The notes under the pieces were generated by a model, which did not search any database, was not told where the DNA came from, and saw nothing but the letters and a program-made list of their open reading frames with translations. 64,000 nt of DNA, taken from positions 14,587-78,586 of the forward strand of contig JAUXNQ010000066.1 of the NCBI GenBank assembly GCA_030682715.1, in the 5' to 3' direction. Each line of letters starts with the position of its first letter. Positions within the stretch are counted from its first letter, which is position 1. The position numbers were made by a program, and so were the translations under genes. Below are positions 5,345 through 45,739 of the stretch, piece by piece. Source of the DNA: Methylotenera sp. (GTDB lineage Bacteria; Pseudomonadota; Gammaproteobacteria; Burkholderiales; Methylophilaceae).

Positions 5345-6645
5345 AAATCTTCCCCAATCATTTTTTCAATCTCAGCAAAGCGCATTTCTTGCTCCACTCT
5401 GGCTCTTATTTGGCCTTGTCTCGCAAGTCTTATTGCTTTTTGTGCATCGAGCAGTGTAGCGAAGTCAACCTTGCCATTTTCGTATCCAGCCAATGCCGAG
5501 CGGAAGGTCAACTCTGCTTGTGGGAGTAATGTATAAGTGATCAGCCGCCCTTGTTTTTCTGCTGCCTCGAAAGCTACTAGGTTTTCTTGCAACTCGCCTA
5601 TTACCTGATTCTCCACTCCGTTACGGCGCTCTTTGGCTGCATCCAGCATAGCGGCAGCCTCACTCTCCTGAGATCTACGAGTATCGAACTGGATTGGAAT
5701 ATTGACCTCCACCATCGCCTCCCAGCTACTGATATTGCCACCACGCTGAGTAGGGGCAATGCCAAGCATTAGATCCGGGTAACGATTCTTTTCTATTAAT
5801 CGCTTGTTAGCGTCTGCGGTCAATATTTGTGCTGATTGTGTAGCAAGTAGTGGATTATTTCGTACCACCTTTTCCTGCAGGACCGCAGTATCCAGCTTTT
5901 CTAGCGGTAAACGACGCAACTCTGGTAACGTGGAAAGCGCTGCACTCTGCGTGCGCCCAAGTGTTGCATTAAGGCGTGACTTAGCCTGTTGCTGTTCAGT
6001 TTCCAGAACAATAATTTCGGACTGCAAGGTGGTTTTTTCAACCTGAGCGCGAATCGCATCTTGCTGGGGTACTAAACCACTGGCATAGCGAACGCGAGTG
6101 ACAGATTCAAGATCACTTAGCAAAGTTAAAATATCCTCGTTAAGCTTCTTCAGGCCAATAGCCTGAAAATACTGGGCATAAGCGTTTTTGATACGGGCGT
6201 GGGTTTCGGCAACGCTGATTAGCCTGCGTCCTTTAAACTGCTCAAGCTGTGCAGTAGCCACTTCCCTGCGTAAGTCACGCTTTCCCCAAAGGGGAATGTT
6301 CTGCATTAAAGTGTATTTAGTTCCACTTCCTTTGCCAAAAAAAGGATTAAATCCATCTGGCGCATCTCGTCCTGCAAAATCCATTAACTCGACGCGTAGC
6401 AACGGGTCAGGCAGCGCACCTGCTGGCGCGATTCGCTCGCTCGCTGCATCAGTTTCATATCTCATTGCCGCAAGCTCAGGGTTGTGCGTGTCTGCCCAGT
6501 TCAGTAATTCCTGCACATTGGCACCGATAGCGTTGCTGGAAGGAACGTCTTCCGCCGATGAAAGCCCTGGCAACATGAATGCTACTAAGGTCAGAACGAG
6601 CATTGTTTTTGAATTGTTTATATACATTATCTTACCTGTATTCAT
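5341..6645 (-). CDS. TolC-family outer-membrane efflux protein (CusC role)
   Basis: Signal peptide, HNPEL, ALPDP, YASGLV and YENGKVDFATLL repeats; directly upstream of cusB with ATGA overlap. Confidence 0.88.
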   Translation of the reverse strand: MNTGKIMYINNSKTMLVLTLVAFMLPGLSSAEDVPSSNAIGANVQELLNWADTHNPELAAMRYETDAASERIAPAGALPDPLLRVELMDFAGRDAPDGFNPFFGKGSGTKYTLMQNIPLWGKRDLRREVATAQLEQFKGRRLISVAETHARIKNAYAQYFQAIGLKKLNEDILTLLSDLESVTRVRYASGLVPQQDAIRAQVEKTTLQSEIIVLETEQQQAKSRLNATLGRTQSAALSTLPELRRLPLEKLDTAVLQEKVVRNNPLLATQSAQILTADANKRLIEKNRYPDLMLGIAPTQRGGNISSWEAMVEVNIPIQFDTRRSQESEAAAMLDAAKERRNGVENQVIGELQENLVAFEAAEKQGRLITYTLLPQAELTFRSALAGYENGKVDFATLLDAQKAIRLARQGQIRARVEQEMRFAEIEKMIGEDL

Positions 6646-27980: not shown

Positions 27981-29255
27981 TTAGCCTTGATACACAGGAA
28001 ATTGTGCAGTTAAAGCATGCACTTTCACTTTGGTTGCAGCAATCACAGCTTCATCTGTCGGATTATCTAAAACATCAGCAATTAAGTTAGCCACTAATCT
28101 AGCTTCTTCTTCTTTAAAACCACGTGTTGTGATTGCTGGCGCACCGATACGAATACCAGAAGTCACAAATGGGCTTTCTGGATCGTTTGGAATAGCGTTT
28201 TTGTTCACAGTAATATGCGCCAAACCAAGTGCAGCATCTGCCGCTTTACCAGTTAAGCCTTTTGGACGTAAATCCACCATAAACATGTGTGATTCAGTAC
28301 GGCCTGAAATGATACGCAATCCACGAGTAGTCAATGTTTCTGCCATGACTTGTGCATTTTTAATCACTTGTGCTTGGTAAGTTTTAAACTCTGGTTGCGC
28401 TGCTTCCAAAAATGCTGTCGCTTTTGCTGCAATCACGTGCATCAATGGGCCACCTTGTAGGCTTGGGAACACACTAGAATTCAATGACTTTTCGAACTCA
28501 GCTTTCGCCATAATGATACCGCCACGTGGGCCACGCAAAGTTTTGTGTGTGGTTGATGTCACAAAATCAGCATGTGGTACTGGGTTTGGATAAACGCCAG
28601 CCGCAATCAAACCTGAGTAGTGCGCCATGTCCACCATAAAGTACGCACCTACTTTTTTAGCAATTTCAGCCATACGTGCCCAGTCAAAACGCAAAGCATA
28701 AGCTGAAGCACCGCCAATCAATAGTTTTGGTTTGCATTCAACCGCAATGCGCTCCATCTCATCATAATCAATCTCTTCTTTTTCATTCAAGCCATAAGGC
28801 ACAATGTTAAATAACTTACCTGACAAGTTAGCTGGTGAACCATGTGTCAAATGACCGCCATGGCCCAAGTTCATACCCATTACAGTGTCACCTGGTTTCA
28901 AAATAGAAAAATAAACCGCTTGGTTAGCTTGTGAGCCAGAATGAGGCTGTACGTTTGCATATTCCGCACCGTACAAAGCTTTCAAACGGTCAATCGCAAG
29001 CTGCTCAACTTGGTCAACAAATTCACAACCACCGTAGAAACGCTTTCCTGGGTAGCCTTCTGCATACTTATTAGTTAACTGTGAGCCCTGCGCCTGCATC
29101 ACTGCTGGGCTAGTATAGTTTTCTGAGGCAATTAGCTCGATGTGTTCATGCTGACGCACAACTTCTTGCTCAATCATGCCCCACAATGCAGGGTCAGCTT
29201 GATTTAAAGTATTATCGTAGTTAAATGGTGCCTTGTTTGATGATGCAGATGACAT
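27981..29255 (-). CDS. glyA: Serine hydroxymethyltransferase
   Basis: [36 protein letters not shown]. Confidence 0.98.
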
Positions 29256-29391
29256 GGTGTTTAGTTTTCCAAATATTTGAATAAAAGGGATTAGTTATCA
29301 TTTTAACATGCCAACTCAGCATCGTTAAAGTGAAGTATTCAAGTTACAAAATTTAATCTAAATGTATTTTACAAAGCAATTATGGTTGATA

Positions 29392-29418
29392 TTAACCAAA
29401 TTGGTTCAATTTGGTGCA
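29392..29418. promoter_or_regulatory. Two overlapping NtrC-like enhancer sites
   Basis: ttaacca-aat-tggttca (29392-29408) and tggttca-att-tggtgca (29402-29418), each 11/14 to TGCACCA-N3-TGGTGCA. Confidence 0.55.
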
Positions 29419-29470
29419 CCACCATCCCACATAAAAATCATAACCTATTGAATAATATAAACTTTACAAC

Positions 29471-29486
29471 TGGCACCATATTTGCT
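29471..29486 (+). promoter_or_regulatory. Sigma54 (-24/-12) promoter
   Basis: TGGCAC-catat-TTGCT, exact consensus and spacing. Confidence 0.75.
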
Positions 29487-29496
29487 TATATAAAAT

Positions 29497-29560
29497 CAAG
29501 CGCATATCTCCAAAATCGCCCTTTGCCCGTAGAGCCTATTAGGTGCTACGGGATTTTTTT
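29497..29560 (+). ncRNA. Candidate sigma54-dependent small RNA (~63 nt)
   Basis: Bounded by the predicted +1 and an intrinsic terminator; no ORF; single-stranded CAUAUCUCC anti-SD-like segment. Confidence 0.55.
29526..29560 (+). terminator. Rho-independent terminator
   Basis: cccgtag / ctacggg stem with inner gcct/aggt pairing, followed by a and T7. Confidence 0.75.
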
Positions 29561-29633
29561 ATCTATAGAAATGCCGCCTATGATTTTTGTAGCTGACAAG
29601 GCTATAATCAAAAAATTATAGGAGACAGATAAT

Positions 29634-29828
29634 ATGAAATGGACTGACAGCCAAGCCATAGCAGAAGCGCTTTACGACAAACACCCAGACATCGACCCAA
29701 AAACGATTCGCTTTACAGACCTCATGGATTGGGTACTAAACCTCGACGGCTTTAACGATAGTGCAGATAAATGTGGCGAAAGAATTTTAGAAGCAATCCA
29801 GCTGGCATGGATTGACGAAGCAGACTAG
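29634..29828 (+). CDS. iscX: Fe-S assembly protein IscX
   Basis: MKWTDSQAIAEAL..HPD.DP..IRFTDL..W..L..F......E.ILEAIQ.AW; GGAGA RBS; tataat at 29603-29608. Confidence 0.92.
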   Translation: MKWTDSQAIAEALYDKHPDIDPKTIRFTDLMDWVLNLDGFNDSADKCGERILEAIQLAWIDEAD

Positions 29829-30832: not shown

Positions 30833-32506
<1,674 letters not shown>

Positions 32507-45330: not shown

Positions 45331-45346
45331 TGCAAAGCCTGTTCCA
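45331..45346 (-). promoter_or_regulatory. Sigma54 (-24/-12) promoter of the FecA-like receptor
   Basis: Minus strand TGGAAC-aggct-TTGCA (GG-N10-GC); predicted +1 near 45320, 50 nt before the ATG. Confidence 0.65.
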
Positions 45347-45739
45347 ACTTGGTGATGTCTTATAAAAAAGTATAAGAACATGATTTCAATCATAAAATTC
45401 CATAAATTTTAAACAATACAAGTTAGTTTTAAATGAACTACGGTTGATAACAACCACCACTTGAAGCATATCAACCAATCAGAATTATGCAGCCTAATCA
45501 ATAACGCGGGGTTAAAGCCGCATGATGTAATATCTGGCATTAATGAGGATACTTTTTTCTTGACACGGCCCACTTTTCTGTATTTCAATGCAATTGAAGC
45601 TTGTGCATCCTGCACTCTACTGTGATGACAAAAGCATGCGCTTTATGTGCTTTTACACCAATTTCAACGCTATTTAAAGCATCAAATGACAATCATAAGG
45701 TTCTGTCCGCTATCACAATGAAAATCAAGTATTAAACAT

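What the first reader, a model, noticed from the sequence alone, without database searches (positions are those of the whole stretch)
29392..29560. Candidate novel nitrogen-responsive sigma54 small RNA between glyA and iscX
Seen, in order on the + strand: two overlapping NtrC-like sites (each 11/14) at about -105 to -79; an exact TGGCAC-N5-TTGCT promoter (29471-29486); a predicted +1 near 29497; about 30 nt of unstructured sequence containing CAUAUCUCC; then a 7+4-bp stem with a T7 tail ending at 29560. iscX has its own tataat downstream, so the short transcript looks independent. CAUAUCUCC is complementary to GGAGAUAUG, an SD plus start codon. Established: NtrC/sigma54 sRNAs exist in other classes (MmgR, NrsZ). 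I do not recognise this sequence. Inference: a trans-acting repressor linking nitrogen status to translation in a methylotroph, with enhancer sites possibly shared with divergent glyA.
Basis: partly seen in the sequence, partly recalled or inferred. Interest (0 to 1): 0.8.

Follow-up and report, generated by a model that had tools for sequence, protein, structure and literature searches.

The report
Conserved sigma-54 small RNA of Methylophilaceae
This short gene between glyA and iscX is very likely a real, previously undescribed regulatory small RNA shared by most methanol-eating Methylophilaceae. In this genome it seems to be switched on by a different activator than the nitrogen regulator first proposed, and it may restrain the lanthanide-dependent methanol dehydrogenase.

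Summary
An exact TGGCAC-N5-TTGCT promoter (29471-29486), an unstructured CU-rich 5' region and a strong terminator ending at 29560 define a ~64-nt transcript.

A covariance model finds it in 90 of 151 Methylophilaceae genomes (31 of 41 genera) and in 0 of 147 genomes of other families. There are usually two paralogs: one between glyA and iscX, one just after glgA. All nine terminator pairs covary. iscX keeps its own conserved gcTATAAT promoter, so this is an independent sRNA. No Rfam family or paper describes it.

The nitrogen/NtrC reading is only partly supported. Near-consensus NtrC sites sit upstream in 22 of 50 copies from other lineages. This genome instead carries a TGGTT-N6-AACCA palindrome at -88 (24 of 50 copies). 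That palindrome also precedes sigma-54 promoters of TonB receptors and lies in the upstream regions of two lanpepsy-like PepSY genes and an activator gene, but it is absent from glnA, amtB and nasT.

The best conserved predicted target is the ribosome-binding site of xoxF (8-12 contiguous pairs in 25 of 27 genomes, with modest covariation).

The parts
29383..29398 (.). Perfect palindrome TGGTTGATATTAACCA, the candidate enhancer (UAS) for a sigma-54 activator other than NtrC
   Evidence: Starts 88 nt upstream of TGGCAC. The same motif lies within -87 to -89 in 18 of the 24 type-1 copies (of 50) that carry it. In the genome there are 31 copies against 9.2 +/- 3.0 in shuffles, and 16 of them lie in the ~12% non-coding DNA. 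It lies 78-155 nt upstream of other sigma-54-like promoters.
29392..29418 (.). Two overlapping degenerate NtrC-like sites (TTAACCAAATTGGTTCA and TGGTTCAATTTGGTGCA)
   Evidence: Each matches TGCACC-N5-GGTGCA at 9 of 12 positions. Other lineages have 10-12 of 12 at the equivalent place.
29441..29453 (+). IHF-like site TAACCTATTGAAT (YAANNNNTTGAWW) between the enhancer and the promoter
   Evidence: 23 of 50 type-1 copies match, all at -29 to -32 from TGGCAC. The background is 11 of 114 windows.
29471..29486 (+). Sigma-54 promoter TGGCAC-N5-TTGCT (the -24 GG and -12 GC elements)
   Evidence: Only exact match in the window. The GG and GC are invariant in 39 aligned copies. The genome has rpoN and 7 activator genes.
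29497..29560 (+). Predicted ~64-nt sRNA (type-1 paralog)
   Evidence: The covariance model scores it 101.7 bits. It is found in 90 of 151 family genomes and 0 of 147 outside the family. No Rfam match.
29500..29516 (+). Single-stranded seed GCGCAUAUCUCCAAAAU (anti-Shine-Dalgarno core UCUCC)
   Evidence: Near-invariant G[CU]AUAUCUCCAAA across genera. Unpaired in the centroid fold. Complementary to the xoxF ribosome-binding site UUUGGAGAU.
29526..29560 (+). Intrinsic terminator: 7+4-bp hairpin plus U7
   Evidence: Fold. In the 39-copy alignment 93% of cells are paired, 9 of 9 pairs show compensatory changes, and the covariation score is 0.761 against 0.16 in shuffles and 0.04-0.13 in slid controls.
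29604..29609 (+). TATAAT -10 box of iscX's own sigma-70 promoter
   Evidence: A gcTATAAT box lies 30-40 nt before the iscX start in 35 of 38 loci, downstream of the sRNA terminator.
29634..29828 (+). iscX (Fe-S_assembly, PF04384), the downstream neighbour and not part of the sRNA unit
   Evidence: Pfam E = 6.5e-33. It is the downstream neighbour in 38 of 50 type-1 loci.
27981..29255 (-). glyA (SHMT), the divergent upstream neighbour, with a sigma-70-like promoter at 29300-29328 on the minus strand
   Evidence: Pfam E = 7.9e-166. Promoter scan. glyA is divergent upstream in 47 of 50 type-1 loci.
45331..45457 (-). Elsewhere in the window: a sigma-54 promoter (45331-45346) of a TonB-dependent receptor, with the same enhancer motif TGGTTGTTATCAACCg at 45442-45457
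   Evidence: Sequence read. Its ortholog in genome G141 carries the palindrome too.

Best explanation
The locus encodes a ~64-nt trans-acting small RNA made from a sigma-54 promoter and ended by an intrinsic terminator.

Shown:
- It belongs to a Methylophilaceae-wide family that usually has two paralogs per genome. One lies between glyA and iscX. The other lies immediately after glgA.
- Its 5' half is an unstructured, highly conserved CU-rich seed (GCGCAUAUCUCCAAAAU).

Inferred:
- With Hfq, the seed pairs with ribosome-binding sites and blocks translation.
- In this genome (a Methylotenera-type lineage) transcription is activated from the palindrome TGGTTGATATTAACCA, 88 nt upstream. The activator is a sigma-54 enhancer-binding protein other than NtrC. 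The best candidate is the orphan response-regulator activator at contig C57:27054-28469, which has three such palindromes in its own upstream region.
- That enhancer type is shared with sigma-54-like promoters of TonB-dependent receptors, and the same palindrome lies upstream of two acidic two-PepSY (lanpepsy-like) genes. This set matches the lanthanum-induced proteins of Methylobacillus flagellatus. In other lineages the same sRNA promoter carries consensus NtrC sites instead.
- The best conserved predicted target is the Shine-Dalgarno region of xoxF, the lanthanide-dependent methanol dehydrogenase. The RNA would then limit XoxF synthesis.
For: sRNA gene:
- Exact promoter and terminator.
- Conserved promoter, seed and terminator in 8 same-genus relatives found by BLASTN.
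- The covariance model hits 90 of 151 family genomes, 31 of 41 genera, mostly two copies each, and 0 of 147 genomes outside the family.
- 34 of 34 exact pattern hits are Methylotenera, Methylophilus or other Methylophilaceae records, apart from one MAG labelled Acidovorax and two labelled only as Betaproteobacteria and Pseudomonadota.
- The terminator covaries in 9 of 9 pairs.
- Indels between copies are not multiples of three.
- iscX has its own conserved -10 box.
- rpoN, 7 activator genes and hfq are present.

Enhancer:
- The palindrome sits within -87 to -89 in 18 of the 24 (of 50) copies that carry it, and it is almost mutually exclusive with NtrC sites scoring at least 10 of 12 (22 of 50 copies; only 2 have both).
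- It is enriched in the genome and strongly intergenic.
- It lies 78-155 nt upstream of sigma-54-like promoters at C64:5724, C64:2750, C64:1195, C48:1303, C57:28902 and C57:28548, and at window 45346.
- It is absent from glnA, amtB and nasT, which have canonical NtrC sites.
- The same regulon (activator gene, PepSY protein, TonB receptors) carries the palindrome in genome G141 of another genus.
- The PepSY proteins are 173-175 aa, secreted, with mature pI about 4.7.
- In M. flagellatus, La3+ induces XoxF, a TonB receptor, lanpepsy and two sigma-54 regulators (PMC9988556).

Target:
- xoxF is the only one of 1399 ortholog pairs with at least 9 contiguous pairs in both genomes.
- At least 8 contiguous pairs over the SD occur in 25 of 27 genomes. 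Compensatory changes occur in G017, in G018 (12 bp) and in genus g40 (11-12 bp).
- Own pairs beat swapped pairs (p = 0.035 for length, p = 0.017 for energy).
- The protein is XoxF-type, not MxaF.
Against: - There are no expression data. The tool that finds sequencing runs was unavailable, so the transcript, its ends and its inducers are unproven.
- The palindrome also lies upstream of genes with no recognisable sigma-54 promoter, such as the beta-propeller gene at C11:12496. Its binding protein could therefore be an ordinary transcription factor rather than an enhancer-binding protein.
- Assigning the palindrome to the C57 activator rests only on the three sites in that gene's own upstream region.
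- Orthology of that activator and of the PepSY proteins to the M. flagellatus La-induced proteins was not tested.
- The xoxF match is SD-centred. Its margin over the next candidates is small (9 against 8 nt). The covariation is modest and the genomes are phylogenetically non-independent.
- xoxF in this genome has neither the palindrome nor a sigma-54 promoter within 450 nt upstream.
Confidence: 0.6

Rival explanations
1. The sRNA is activated by NtrC under nitrogen limitation through the two overlapping NtrC-like sites at 29392-29418.
For: A true NtrC is encoded (709 bits, above the cut-off). One half-site is a perfect TGGTGCA. In 22 of 50 copies from other lineages the same promoter has sites scoring 10-12 of 12 against the NtrC consensus at about -100. 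These resemble the glnA sites of the same genus. Weak clustered sites can still be used cooperatively (general knowledge).
Against: The window's sites score only 9 of 12 and overlap a perfect palindrome of another type. That palindrome is what is conserved in the genus. The genome's real NtrC targets have canonical GCAC-N7-GTGC sites and lack the palindrome. The two enhancer types are nearly mutually exclusive across copies.
Confidence: 0.22
2. It is a 5' leader or attenuator of iscX. Sigma-54 transcription reads into iscX unless it stops at the hairpin.
For: iscX is the downstream neighbour in 38 of 50 type-1 loci, 59-130 nt after the terminator in most.
Against: A conserved gcTATAAT -10 box lies between the terminator and iscX in 35 of 38 loci. 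The terminator is strong (11 bp plus U7-8). No alternative antiterminator pairing is conserved. The paralog after glgA has the same promoter-seed-terminator plan with no iscX.
Confidence: 0.06
3. It is a real sigma-54 sRNA, but xoxF is not its main target. It acts on other mRNAs with UUUGGAGA-type ribosome-binding sites, or it titrates a protein. Candidate mRNAs are the PQQ-associated beta-propeller gene, the secreted Polyketide_cyc2 (SRPBCC-fold) protein gene at C62:79862, pqqC, the PII gene and ribosomal protein genes.
For: Several ortholog pairs show 7-8 contiguous pairs. The beta-propeller gene keeps a median of 8 across genera. About 25 nt of the RNA are conserved, more than the 9 nt xoxF needs.
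Against: xoxF has the longest and most consistent match, with some compensatory changes. The C62:79862 match is poorly conserved, with a median of 7.
Confidence: 0.35
4. The promoter-like and terminator-like sequences are juxtaposed by chance, or the region encodes a small protein (the 79-aa ORF at 29382-29621).
For: An ATG-initiated 79-aa frame spans the region.
Against: There is family-wide conservation of exactly the promoter, seed and hairpin, with compensatory stem changes and frame-breaking indels. The ORF would start inside the enhancer.
Confidence: 0.02

Closest known systems
NrsZ (Pseudomonas aeruginosa) and NfiS (P. stutzeri): NtrC/RpoN-dependent sRNAs
   Same: A stand-alone sRNA gene with a -24/-12 promoter and an upstream enhancer. 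In about half of the Methylophilaceae copies the enhancer is a consensus NtrC site. It probably acts by base pairing.
   Different: No sequence or structure similarity: there is no Rfam hit at E <= 10 apart from chance terminator matches. It is much shorter (~64 nt) and has an anti-SD seed. In this genome the enhancer is not of the NtrC type.
Qrr1-5 (Vibrio; LuxO/sigma-54) sibling sRNAs
   Same: Multiple sigma-54-dependent paralogs per genome. They are short, have a conserved single-stranded seed plus a terminator, and are driven by a response-regulator-type activator bound to an upstream palindrome.
   Different: A different sequence family and a different enhancer motif (TGGTT-N6-AACCA against my recalled TTGCA-N3-TGCAA). 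The two paralogs here have different seeds and apparently different activators. There is no link to quorum sensing.
MmgR / alpha-r8 family (Sinorhizobium; nitrogen-regulated, limits PHB storage)
   Same: A CU-rich UCCUCCC-type anti-SD motif. The glgA-linked paralog sits next to a carbon-storage gene. The best Rfam hit for that paralog includes the mmgR model (RF00519).
   Different: That hit scores only 15.7 bits against a gathering score of 41, E = 0.94, so it is at chance level and this is not a member. The promoter type and the taxon differ.
GlmY/GlmZ (enterobacteria; GlrR/sigma-54)
   Same: Sigma-54-dependent sRNAs activated by a response-regulator activator, with an IHF site between enhancer and promoter. 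A GlrR-like activator exists in this genome (626 bits, below its 763-bit cut-off).
   Different: No Rfam match. No TGTC-N10-GACA sites were seen (motif recalled from memory). The RNA is far smaller, and its predicted mechanism is SD occlusion, not protein titration.
Lanthanide response of Methylobacillus flagellatus (Hemmann et al. 2023, PMC9988556)
   Same: The same family of bacteria. La3+ induces XoxF, a TonB-dependent receptor, the two-PepSY protein lanpepsy and two sigma-54 regulators, one of them encoded next to the receptor. Here the palindrome enhancer links a sigma-54 activator gene, TonB receptors and lanpepsy-like proteins.
   Different: That study describes no sRNA and no enhancer motif. 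Orthology of the proteins was not tested here. The link between this sRNA and lanthanides is inference only.

Membership tests
Sigma-54 (RpoN) dependent promoter with upstream enhancer | GG at -24 and GC at -12 with exact spacing (TGGCAC-N5-TTGCW) | tested here: met
   Exact match at 29471-29486, the only one in the window. GG and GC are invariant in 39 copies.
Sigma-54 (RpoN) dependent promoter with upstream enhancer | rpoN and enhancer-binding proteins encoded in the genome | tested here: met
   rpoN on C65. Seven PF00158 activators including NifA and NtrC.
Sigma-54 (RpoN) dependent promoter with upstream enhancer | Conserved activator site 80-150 nt upstream, with a DNA-bending (IHF) site between | tested here: met
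   The palindrome lies at -88 at a fixed position. The IHF-like motif lies at a fixed -30 in 23 of 50 copies.
Sigma-54 (RpoN) dependent promoter with upstream enhancer | Transcription requires RpoN and an activator in vivo | not testable with these tools
Needs rpoN and activator mutants.
NtrC regulon (nitrogen-regulated sRNAs such as NrsZ) | Tandem TGCACC-N5-GGTGCA sites upstream of the promoter | tested here: inconclusive
   The window has two sites at 9 of 12. Other lineages score 10-12 of 12. This genome's glnA, amtB and nasT have canonical sites.
NtrC regulon (nitrogen-regulated sRNAs such as NrsZ) | Induction under nitrogen limitation, lost in an ntrC mutant | not testable with these tools
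   No expression data were available.
Known Rfam sRNA families (Qrr, GlmY, GlmZ, NrsZ, mmgR and others; 4227 models) | Covariance-model score at or above the family's gathering threshold | tested here: not met
   The window paralog scores at best 20.4 bits against 90 (rliE, E = 1.3). The glgA paralog scores at best 20.6 bits against 80, and mmgR scores 15.7 against 41.
Hfq-type base-pairing sRNA | Rho-independent terminator with a U tail, and a conserved single-stranded seed | tested here: met
Hfq-type base-pairing sRNA | Hfq present and binding the RNA | tested here: inconclusive
   An hfq gene is present. Binding cannot be tested here.
Hfq-type base-pairing sRNA | Conserved, co-varying pairing with a target mRNA | tested here: inconclusive
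   The xoxF ribosome-binding site pairs over 8-12 nt in 25 of 27 genomes. Own pairs against swapped pairs give p = 0.035 and 0.017. The support is modest.
Lanthanide-response regulon of Methylophilaceae (as defined by M. flagellatus proteomics) | A sigma-54 regulator encoded next to a TonB-dependent receptor, and a lanpepsy-like two-PepSY acidic periplasmic protein under common control | tested here: met
   The C57 activator gene is divergent from a TonB receptor gene, with three palindromes between them. Two PepSY proteins (173 and 175 aa, mature pI about 4.7) have the palindrome upstream. The association is conserved in G141.
Lanthanide-response regulon of Methylophilaceae (as defined by M. 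flagellatus proteomics) | Orthology to Mfla_1254, Mfla_0343 and Mfla_0908, and induction by La3+ | not tested
   The M. flagellatus sequences were not retrieved, and no expression data were available.

The most novel reading that the evidence does not exclude
In Methylotenera-type Methylophilaceae this sRNA is the post-transcriptional arm of a sigma-54-dependent lanthanide-response regulon. The proposal has three steps:
- An orphan response-regulator activator binds TGGTT-N6-AACCA enhancers.
- It co-activates TonB receptors, lanpepsy-like proteins and the sRNA.
- The sRNA pairs with the xoxF ribosome-binding site to cap synthesis of the lanthanide methanol dehydrogenase.

During evolution the same sRNA promoter swapped enhancers between this activator and NtrC. 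As a result, different lineages gate methanol oxidation by metal supply or by nitrogen supply.
Probability: 0.28. Interest if true: 0.85.

Novelty: new member of a known kind. Interest (0 to 1): 0.7.

Why it matters
Methylophilaceae are key methanol consumers in lakes, soils and oceans, and no regulatory RNA has been described in them. I found none in Rfam and no Methylophilaceae sRNA paper in the held literature.

Three things make this family useful:
- It is widespread, it is present in cultivable strains (Methylotenera mobilis 13 and Methylophilus methylotrophus DSM 46235), and it has a clear promoter class. That gives a direct experimental handle.
- If the enhancer swap is real, it is a clean natural example of one sRNA gene being rewired between two sigma-54 activators.
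- If the xoxF pairing is real, it adds an RNA layer to the still poorly understood lanthanide switch. The only prior hint of sigma-54 involvement there is the 2023 M. flagellatus proteome (PMC9988556).

Tried and rejected
- Rfam E-value scans of the window locus, the glgA paralog and the C48 RNA gave only sub-threshold hits, mostly on the terminators.
- Single-genome hybridisation-energy ranking put c-di-GMP proteins on top: an HD-GYP protein, an HDOD protein, and an ODP plus GGDEF-EAL pair. The ODP/GGDEF-EAL operon occurs in only 10 of 121 genomes. Its 'site' lies in coding sequence and is not conserved in orthologs. Rejected.
- An exact k-mer scan of the genome was mostly noise. The two 'SD+ATG' matches checked, at C62:9922 and C20:10624, are not gene starts.
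- The top comparative energy hit (C36:3855, downstream of a Gly-rich C-terminus) reflects a G-rich coding stretch pairing with any CU-rich RNA. I treated it as an artefact.
- glyA's own 5' UTR, read by eye from the sequence, shows only 6-7 nt of complementarity. I did not pursue it.
- The secreted Polyketide_cyc2 protein gene (C62:79862) keeps its match poorly across genera, with a median of 7.
- The ~240-nt sigma-54-driven RNA at C48:1303 was not found in 100 other family genomes.
- B. pertussis S17, a conserved betaproteobacterial sRNA, is sigma-A dependent and unrelated.
Full report
**1. The observation**

- TGGCAC-N5-TTGCT lies at 29471-29486. It is the only exact match to TGGCAC-N5-TTGCW in the 64-kb window.
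- The predicted start is near 29497, and CATATCTCC lies at 29503-29511.
- A 7+4-bp hairpin (29526-29552) is followed by seven T ending at 29560.
- The 66-nt stretch folds at -17.5 kcal/mol (z = -2.1). The first 29 nt are unpaired in the centroid structure.
- The simple terminator scan missed the hairpin because of its internal mismatch.
- The neighbours are serine hydroxymethyltransferase (27981-29255, minus strand) and IscX (29634-29828).
- No Rfam family matches. The best hit is 20.4 bits against a gathering score of 90.

**2. It is a conserved gene family**

- BLASTN of 29380-29640 found the region in eight same-genus genomes. Their alignment shows three conserved islands: an upstream palindrome region, the -24/-12 promoter and AAGCGCATATCTCCAAAA. 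The hairpin changes sequence but keeps pairing.
- I built a covariance model from ten copies.
- In the window's own genome it finds two copies. One is the window locus at 101.7 bits. The other is at contig C22:21234-21336 at 49 bits.
- Across the family it hits 90 of 151 genomes in 31 of 41 genera, mostly two per genome.
- Outside the family, in about 60 other families of the same order, it hits 0 of 147 genomes at E <= 0.001.
- An exact promoter-plus-seed pattern scanned over one genome per prokaryotic species returned 34 loci. All but three are Methylotenera, Methylophilus or other Methylophilales records. The exceptions are one MAG labelled Acidovorax and two labelled only as Betaproteobacteria and Pseudomonadota. 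The hits include M. mobilis 13 and M. methylotrophus DSM 46235.
- In the 39-copy alignment the GG and GC dinucleotides are invariant, and the seed G[CU]AUAUCUCCAAA plus a second CU-rich block (CGCUCCCC) are nearly so.
- In the terminator, 93% of cells are paired and 9 of 9 pairs have compensatory changes. The covariation score is 0.761, against 0.16 in shuffles and 0.04-0.13 in slid controls. That alignment was fitted to the model, which favours the structure somewhat.
- Indels between copies are not multiples of three, so the overlapping 79-aa ORF is not coding.

**3. Two paralog types and independence from iscX**

- Type 1, the window copy, has glyA divergently upstream in 47 of 50 non-redundant copies and iscX downstream in 38 of 50.
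- That synteny raised the possibility of an iscX leader. However, 35 of 38 loci carry a gcTATAAT box 30-40 nt before the iscX start, in the 59-130-nt gap after the terminator. iscX therefore has its own sigma-70 promoter.
- Type 2 starts about 30 nt after the glgA stop codon in 7 of 7 copies. It has an ATGCT -12 element and a different seed: AAGCU-UCUCCAAAGC...UCUCCUCCC in most genera, and CUAUUUCUCCUAAGCC in this genome.
- The same promoter-seed-terminator plan in an unrelated context shows that these are self-contained sRNA genes.
- The genome encodes RpoN, seven sigma-54 activators and Hfq. The activators include NifA, NtrC, a GlrR-like protein and four unnamed response regulators.

**4. 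Which activator?**

- Scoring the upstream regions of 57 non-redundant copies against TGCACC-N5-GGTGCA gave at least 10 of 12 in 22 of 50 type-1 copies. All lie about 100 nt before TGGCAC. Examples are a perfect TGCACCAAATCGGTGCA (L067) and CGCACCAATTCGGTGCA in M. methylotrophus (L075).
- The chance of such a score in a 150-nt stretch is about 0.006 by my calculation.
- In this genome, sigma-54 promoters preceded by canonical GCAC-N7-GTGC sites stand before glnA, amtB and a nasT/nasS-like pair, which validates the motif locally. The same holds for glnA in genome G141.
- The window copy scores only 9 of 12 at two overlapping sites. What is conserved in its genus is a palindrome, TGGTTGATATTAACCA (29383-29398).
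- That motif (TGGYT-N6-ARCCA) occurs in 24 of 50 type-1 copies, within -87 to -89 from TGGCAC in 18 of them. It is almost mutually exclusive with strong NtrC sites: only 2 copies have both and 6 have neither.
- An IHF-like YAANNNNTTGAWW motif sits at a fixed -30 in 23 of 50 copies.

**5. The palindrome defines another regulon**

- The genome has 31 copies of the motif against 9.2 +/- 3.0 in composition-preserving shuffles. Sixteen of them lie in the ~12% of DNA that is non-coding.
- Palindromes lie 78-155 nt upstream of sigma-54-like promoters at these places:
  - C64:5724, a perfect promoter for a protein with a pilin-like N-terminal methylation motif;
  - C64:2750, before a Wzy_C protein;
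  - C64:1195;
  - C48:1303;
  - both divergent promoters between a TonB-dependent receptor gene and the activator gene C57:27054-28469, where three palindromes stand 21-22 bp apart;
  - the TonB receptor in this window (TGGTTGTTATCAACCg at 45442-45457, promoter at 45331-45346).
- Two paralogous secreted proteins, each with two PepSY domains, also have the palindrome upstream. They are 173 and 175 aa, have 32-37 acidic residues and a mature pI of about 4.7.
- None of the NtrC targets carries the palindrome.
- In genome G141, from another genus, the palindrome precedes the orthologs of the same activator gene (65% identity), the PepSY protein (69%) and the window's TonB receptor (60%). Its sRNA copy has NtrC-like sites instead. 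The two motifs therefore belong to two different regulators, and the sRNA promoter has exchanged enhancers between lineages.
- Caveat: the palindrome is also conserved upstream of a beta-propeller gene (C11:12496) that has no recognisable sigma-54 promoter. The binding protein is therefore not proven to be an enhancer-binding protein.

**6. A possible physiological meaning**

In Methylobacillus flagellatus, which belongs to the same family, lanthanum induces the following (PMC9988556):
- XoxF and XoxG;
- a TonB-dependent receptor;
- the two-PepSY lanthanide-binding protein lanpepsy (19 kDa, pI 4.6);
- two sigma-54 regulators, one encoded beside the receptor.

The authors note that sigma-54 regulators had not been linked to lanthanides before.

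The palindrome regulon found here has the same composition: an activator gene next to a TonB receptor, further TonB receptors and lanpepsy-like proteins. I did not test orthology, and no expression data were available. The lanthanide link is inference.

**7. Targets**

- Energy ranking in one genome was misleading (see the tried-and-rejected field).
- I therefore fetched 2.0 of 2.03 Mb of genome G141 and defined 1399 reciprocal-best ortholog pairs.
- I then asked which translation-initiation regions keep contiguous complementarity to each genome's own type-1 seed.
- The single best pair is a 623-aa PQQ dehydrogenase at C5:38779, with 9 nt (UUUGGAGAU) here and 11 nt (ACUUUGGAGAA) in G141. Next come four pairs with 8 nt and eight with 7 nt.
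- The protein belongs to the methanol/ethanol PQQ dehydrogenase family (613 bits). It is closest to solved XoxF structures 6oc5 and 6dam rather than to Methylophilus MxaF.
- In 25 of 27 genomes the xoxF ribosome-binding site pairs with the resident sRNA over at least 8 contiguous nt covering the SD.
- Some changes are matched on both sides:
  - G017: seed UUCUCC with target GGAGAA;
  - G018: seed CCAAAUAA with target UUAUUUGG, 12 bp;
  - genus g40: seed CCAAAGUU with target AACUUUGG, 11-12 bp.
- Own pairs beat swapped pairs only modestly: 9.2 against 8.84 nt (permutation p = 0.035) and -16.7 against -16.1 kcal/mol (p = 0.017). The genomes are related, so these are not true probabilities.
- Other conserved candidates include the following:
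  - a beta-propeller protein whose best NCBIfam match is the PQQ-dependent-catabolism-associated family, below its cut-off;
  - a secreted Polyketide_cyc2 (SRPBCC-fold) protein;
  - pqqC;
  - a PII protein;
  - several ribosomal protein genes.
- I rate xoxF as a direct target at about 40%.

**8. Verdict**

It is a family-wide, previously undescribed sigma-54-dependent sRNA with sibling copies.
- The proposed nitrogen control fits other lineages better than this genome. Here a different, palindromic enhancer is the better candidate. That enhancer is shared with TonB-receptor promoters and also lies upstream of lanpepsy-like genes.
- As a kind of element (a sigma-54-driven base-pairing sRNA) it is known, so I class it as a new member of a known kind.
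- Its enhancer swap and possible control of the lanthanide methanol dehydrogenase are the parts that would matter most if confirmed.
- No paper in the held library describes sRNAs in Methylophilaceae.

Noticed in passing
G000 contig C22:21234-21336 (+), locus L013:1501-1603; outside the window: A second, sibling sRNA gene lies about 30 nt after the glgA stop codon. It has a sigma-54 promoter (TTGGCAT-N5-ATGCT), the seed CUAUUUCUCCUAAGCC...UUUCUCCCC and a terminator. This type is found after glgA in 7 of 7 copies across genera, and no NtrC-like or palindromic enhancer was seen. Its activator site may lie inside the glgA coding sequence.
   Followed up: partly
G000 contig C48:1203-1560 (+), locus L328:1203-1560: The same palindrome plus TTGGTTCA enhancer lies 100 nt upstream of a sigma-54 promoter (TGGCAT-N5-TTGCA at 1303). 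That promoter would drive a ~240-nt ORF-less transcript starting ACUAUCUCCAUCAGCGCC and ending at a strong terminator (GCCCGAGG...CCTCGGGC-T8). There is no Rfam match, and it was not found in 100 other family genomes. It sits beside toxin-antitoxin-like genes (a PemK-like toxin and a nucleotidyltransferase).
   Followed up: partly
window 45331-45457 (-): The TonB-dependent (FecA-like) receptor gene has a sigma-54-type promoter (TGGAAC-N5-TTGCA). About 110 nt upstream is TGGTTGTTATCAACCg, the same enhancer motif as the sRNA. Its ortholog in genome G141 also carries the palindrome.
   Followed up: partly
G000 contig C57:27054-31393 (locus L327): Three TGGTT-N6-AACCA palindromes spaced 21-22 bp apart lie between a response-regulator-type sigma-54 activator gene and a divergent TonB-dependent receptor gene. 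Each gene has a GGAAT-N5-TTGCT promoter-like site. No sensor kinase gene is adjacent; the next gene is ATP-grasp/purK-like. This is the likely autoregulated master of the palindrome regulon.
   Followed up: partly
G000 contigs C57:18578-19105 (-) and C64:422-943 (-): Two paralogous secreted proteins of 173 and 175 aa, each with two PepSY domains, 32-37 acidic residues and a mature pI of about 4.7. They resemble the lanthanide-binding protein lanpepsy of Methylobacillus flagellatus, and both have the palindrome about 115-130 nt upstream.
   Followed up: partly
G000 contig C11:12287-12330 (locus L010), upstream of C11:12496-13614: A 23-nt exact copy of window 29381-29403 and a second palindrome lie 160-205 nt upstream of a lipoprotein gene. 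The protein is a YNCE/YVTN beta-propeller whose best NCBIfam match is the PQQ-dependent-catabolism-associated family, below its cut-off. There is no sigma-54 promoter. The palindrome is conserved upstream of this gene in many genera, and its ribosome-binding site (UUUGGAGA) also matches the sRNA seed.
   Followed up: partly
loci L229-L256 (xoxF 5' regions in 27 genomes); G000 C5:38740-38781: The xoxF 5' UTR is conserved at the nucleotide level across genera well beyond the SD (aaCCCUUAGUAAUnaACUUUGGAGAU). This suggests further regulatory features. An inverted repeat, GCACA-N4-TGTGC, lies about 115 nt upstream of the xoxF start codon in this genome.
   Followed up: no
G000 contig C37 (NifA at 472-2121; perfect sigma-54 promoters at 2289, 16821, 29871 and 42947): The genome encodes NifA (716 bits, above the cut-off) and a cluster of perfect sigma-54 promoters on the same contig. 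The organism is therefore probably a nitrogen-fixing member of the Methylophilaceae.
   Followed up: no
G000 contig C64:4775-5966: A stretch of about 1.2 kb has no ORF of 70 aa or more. It lies between a Wzy_C gene and a sigma-54-driven gene for a protein with a pilin-like N-terminal methylation motif, and it contains the palindrome at 5620.
   Followed up: no
window 30833-32485 (-): A phosphoglucomutase gene lies 1.3 kb from the type-1 sRNA, while the type-2 sibling follows glgA. Both copies therefore sit near glycogen-metabolism genes. This may be coincidence.
   Followed up: no
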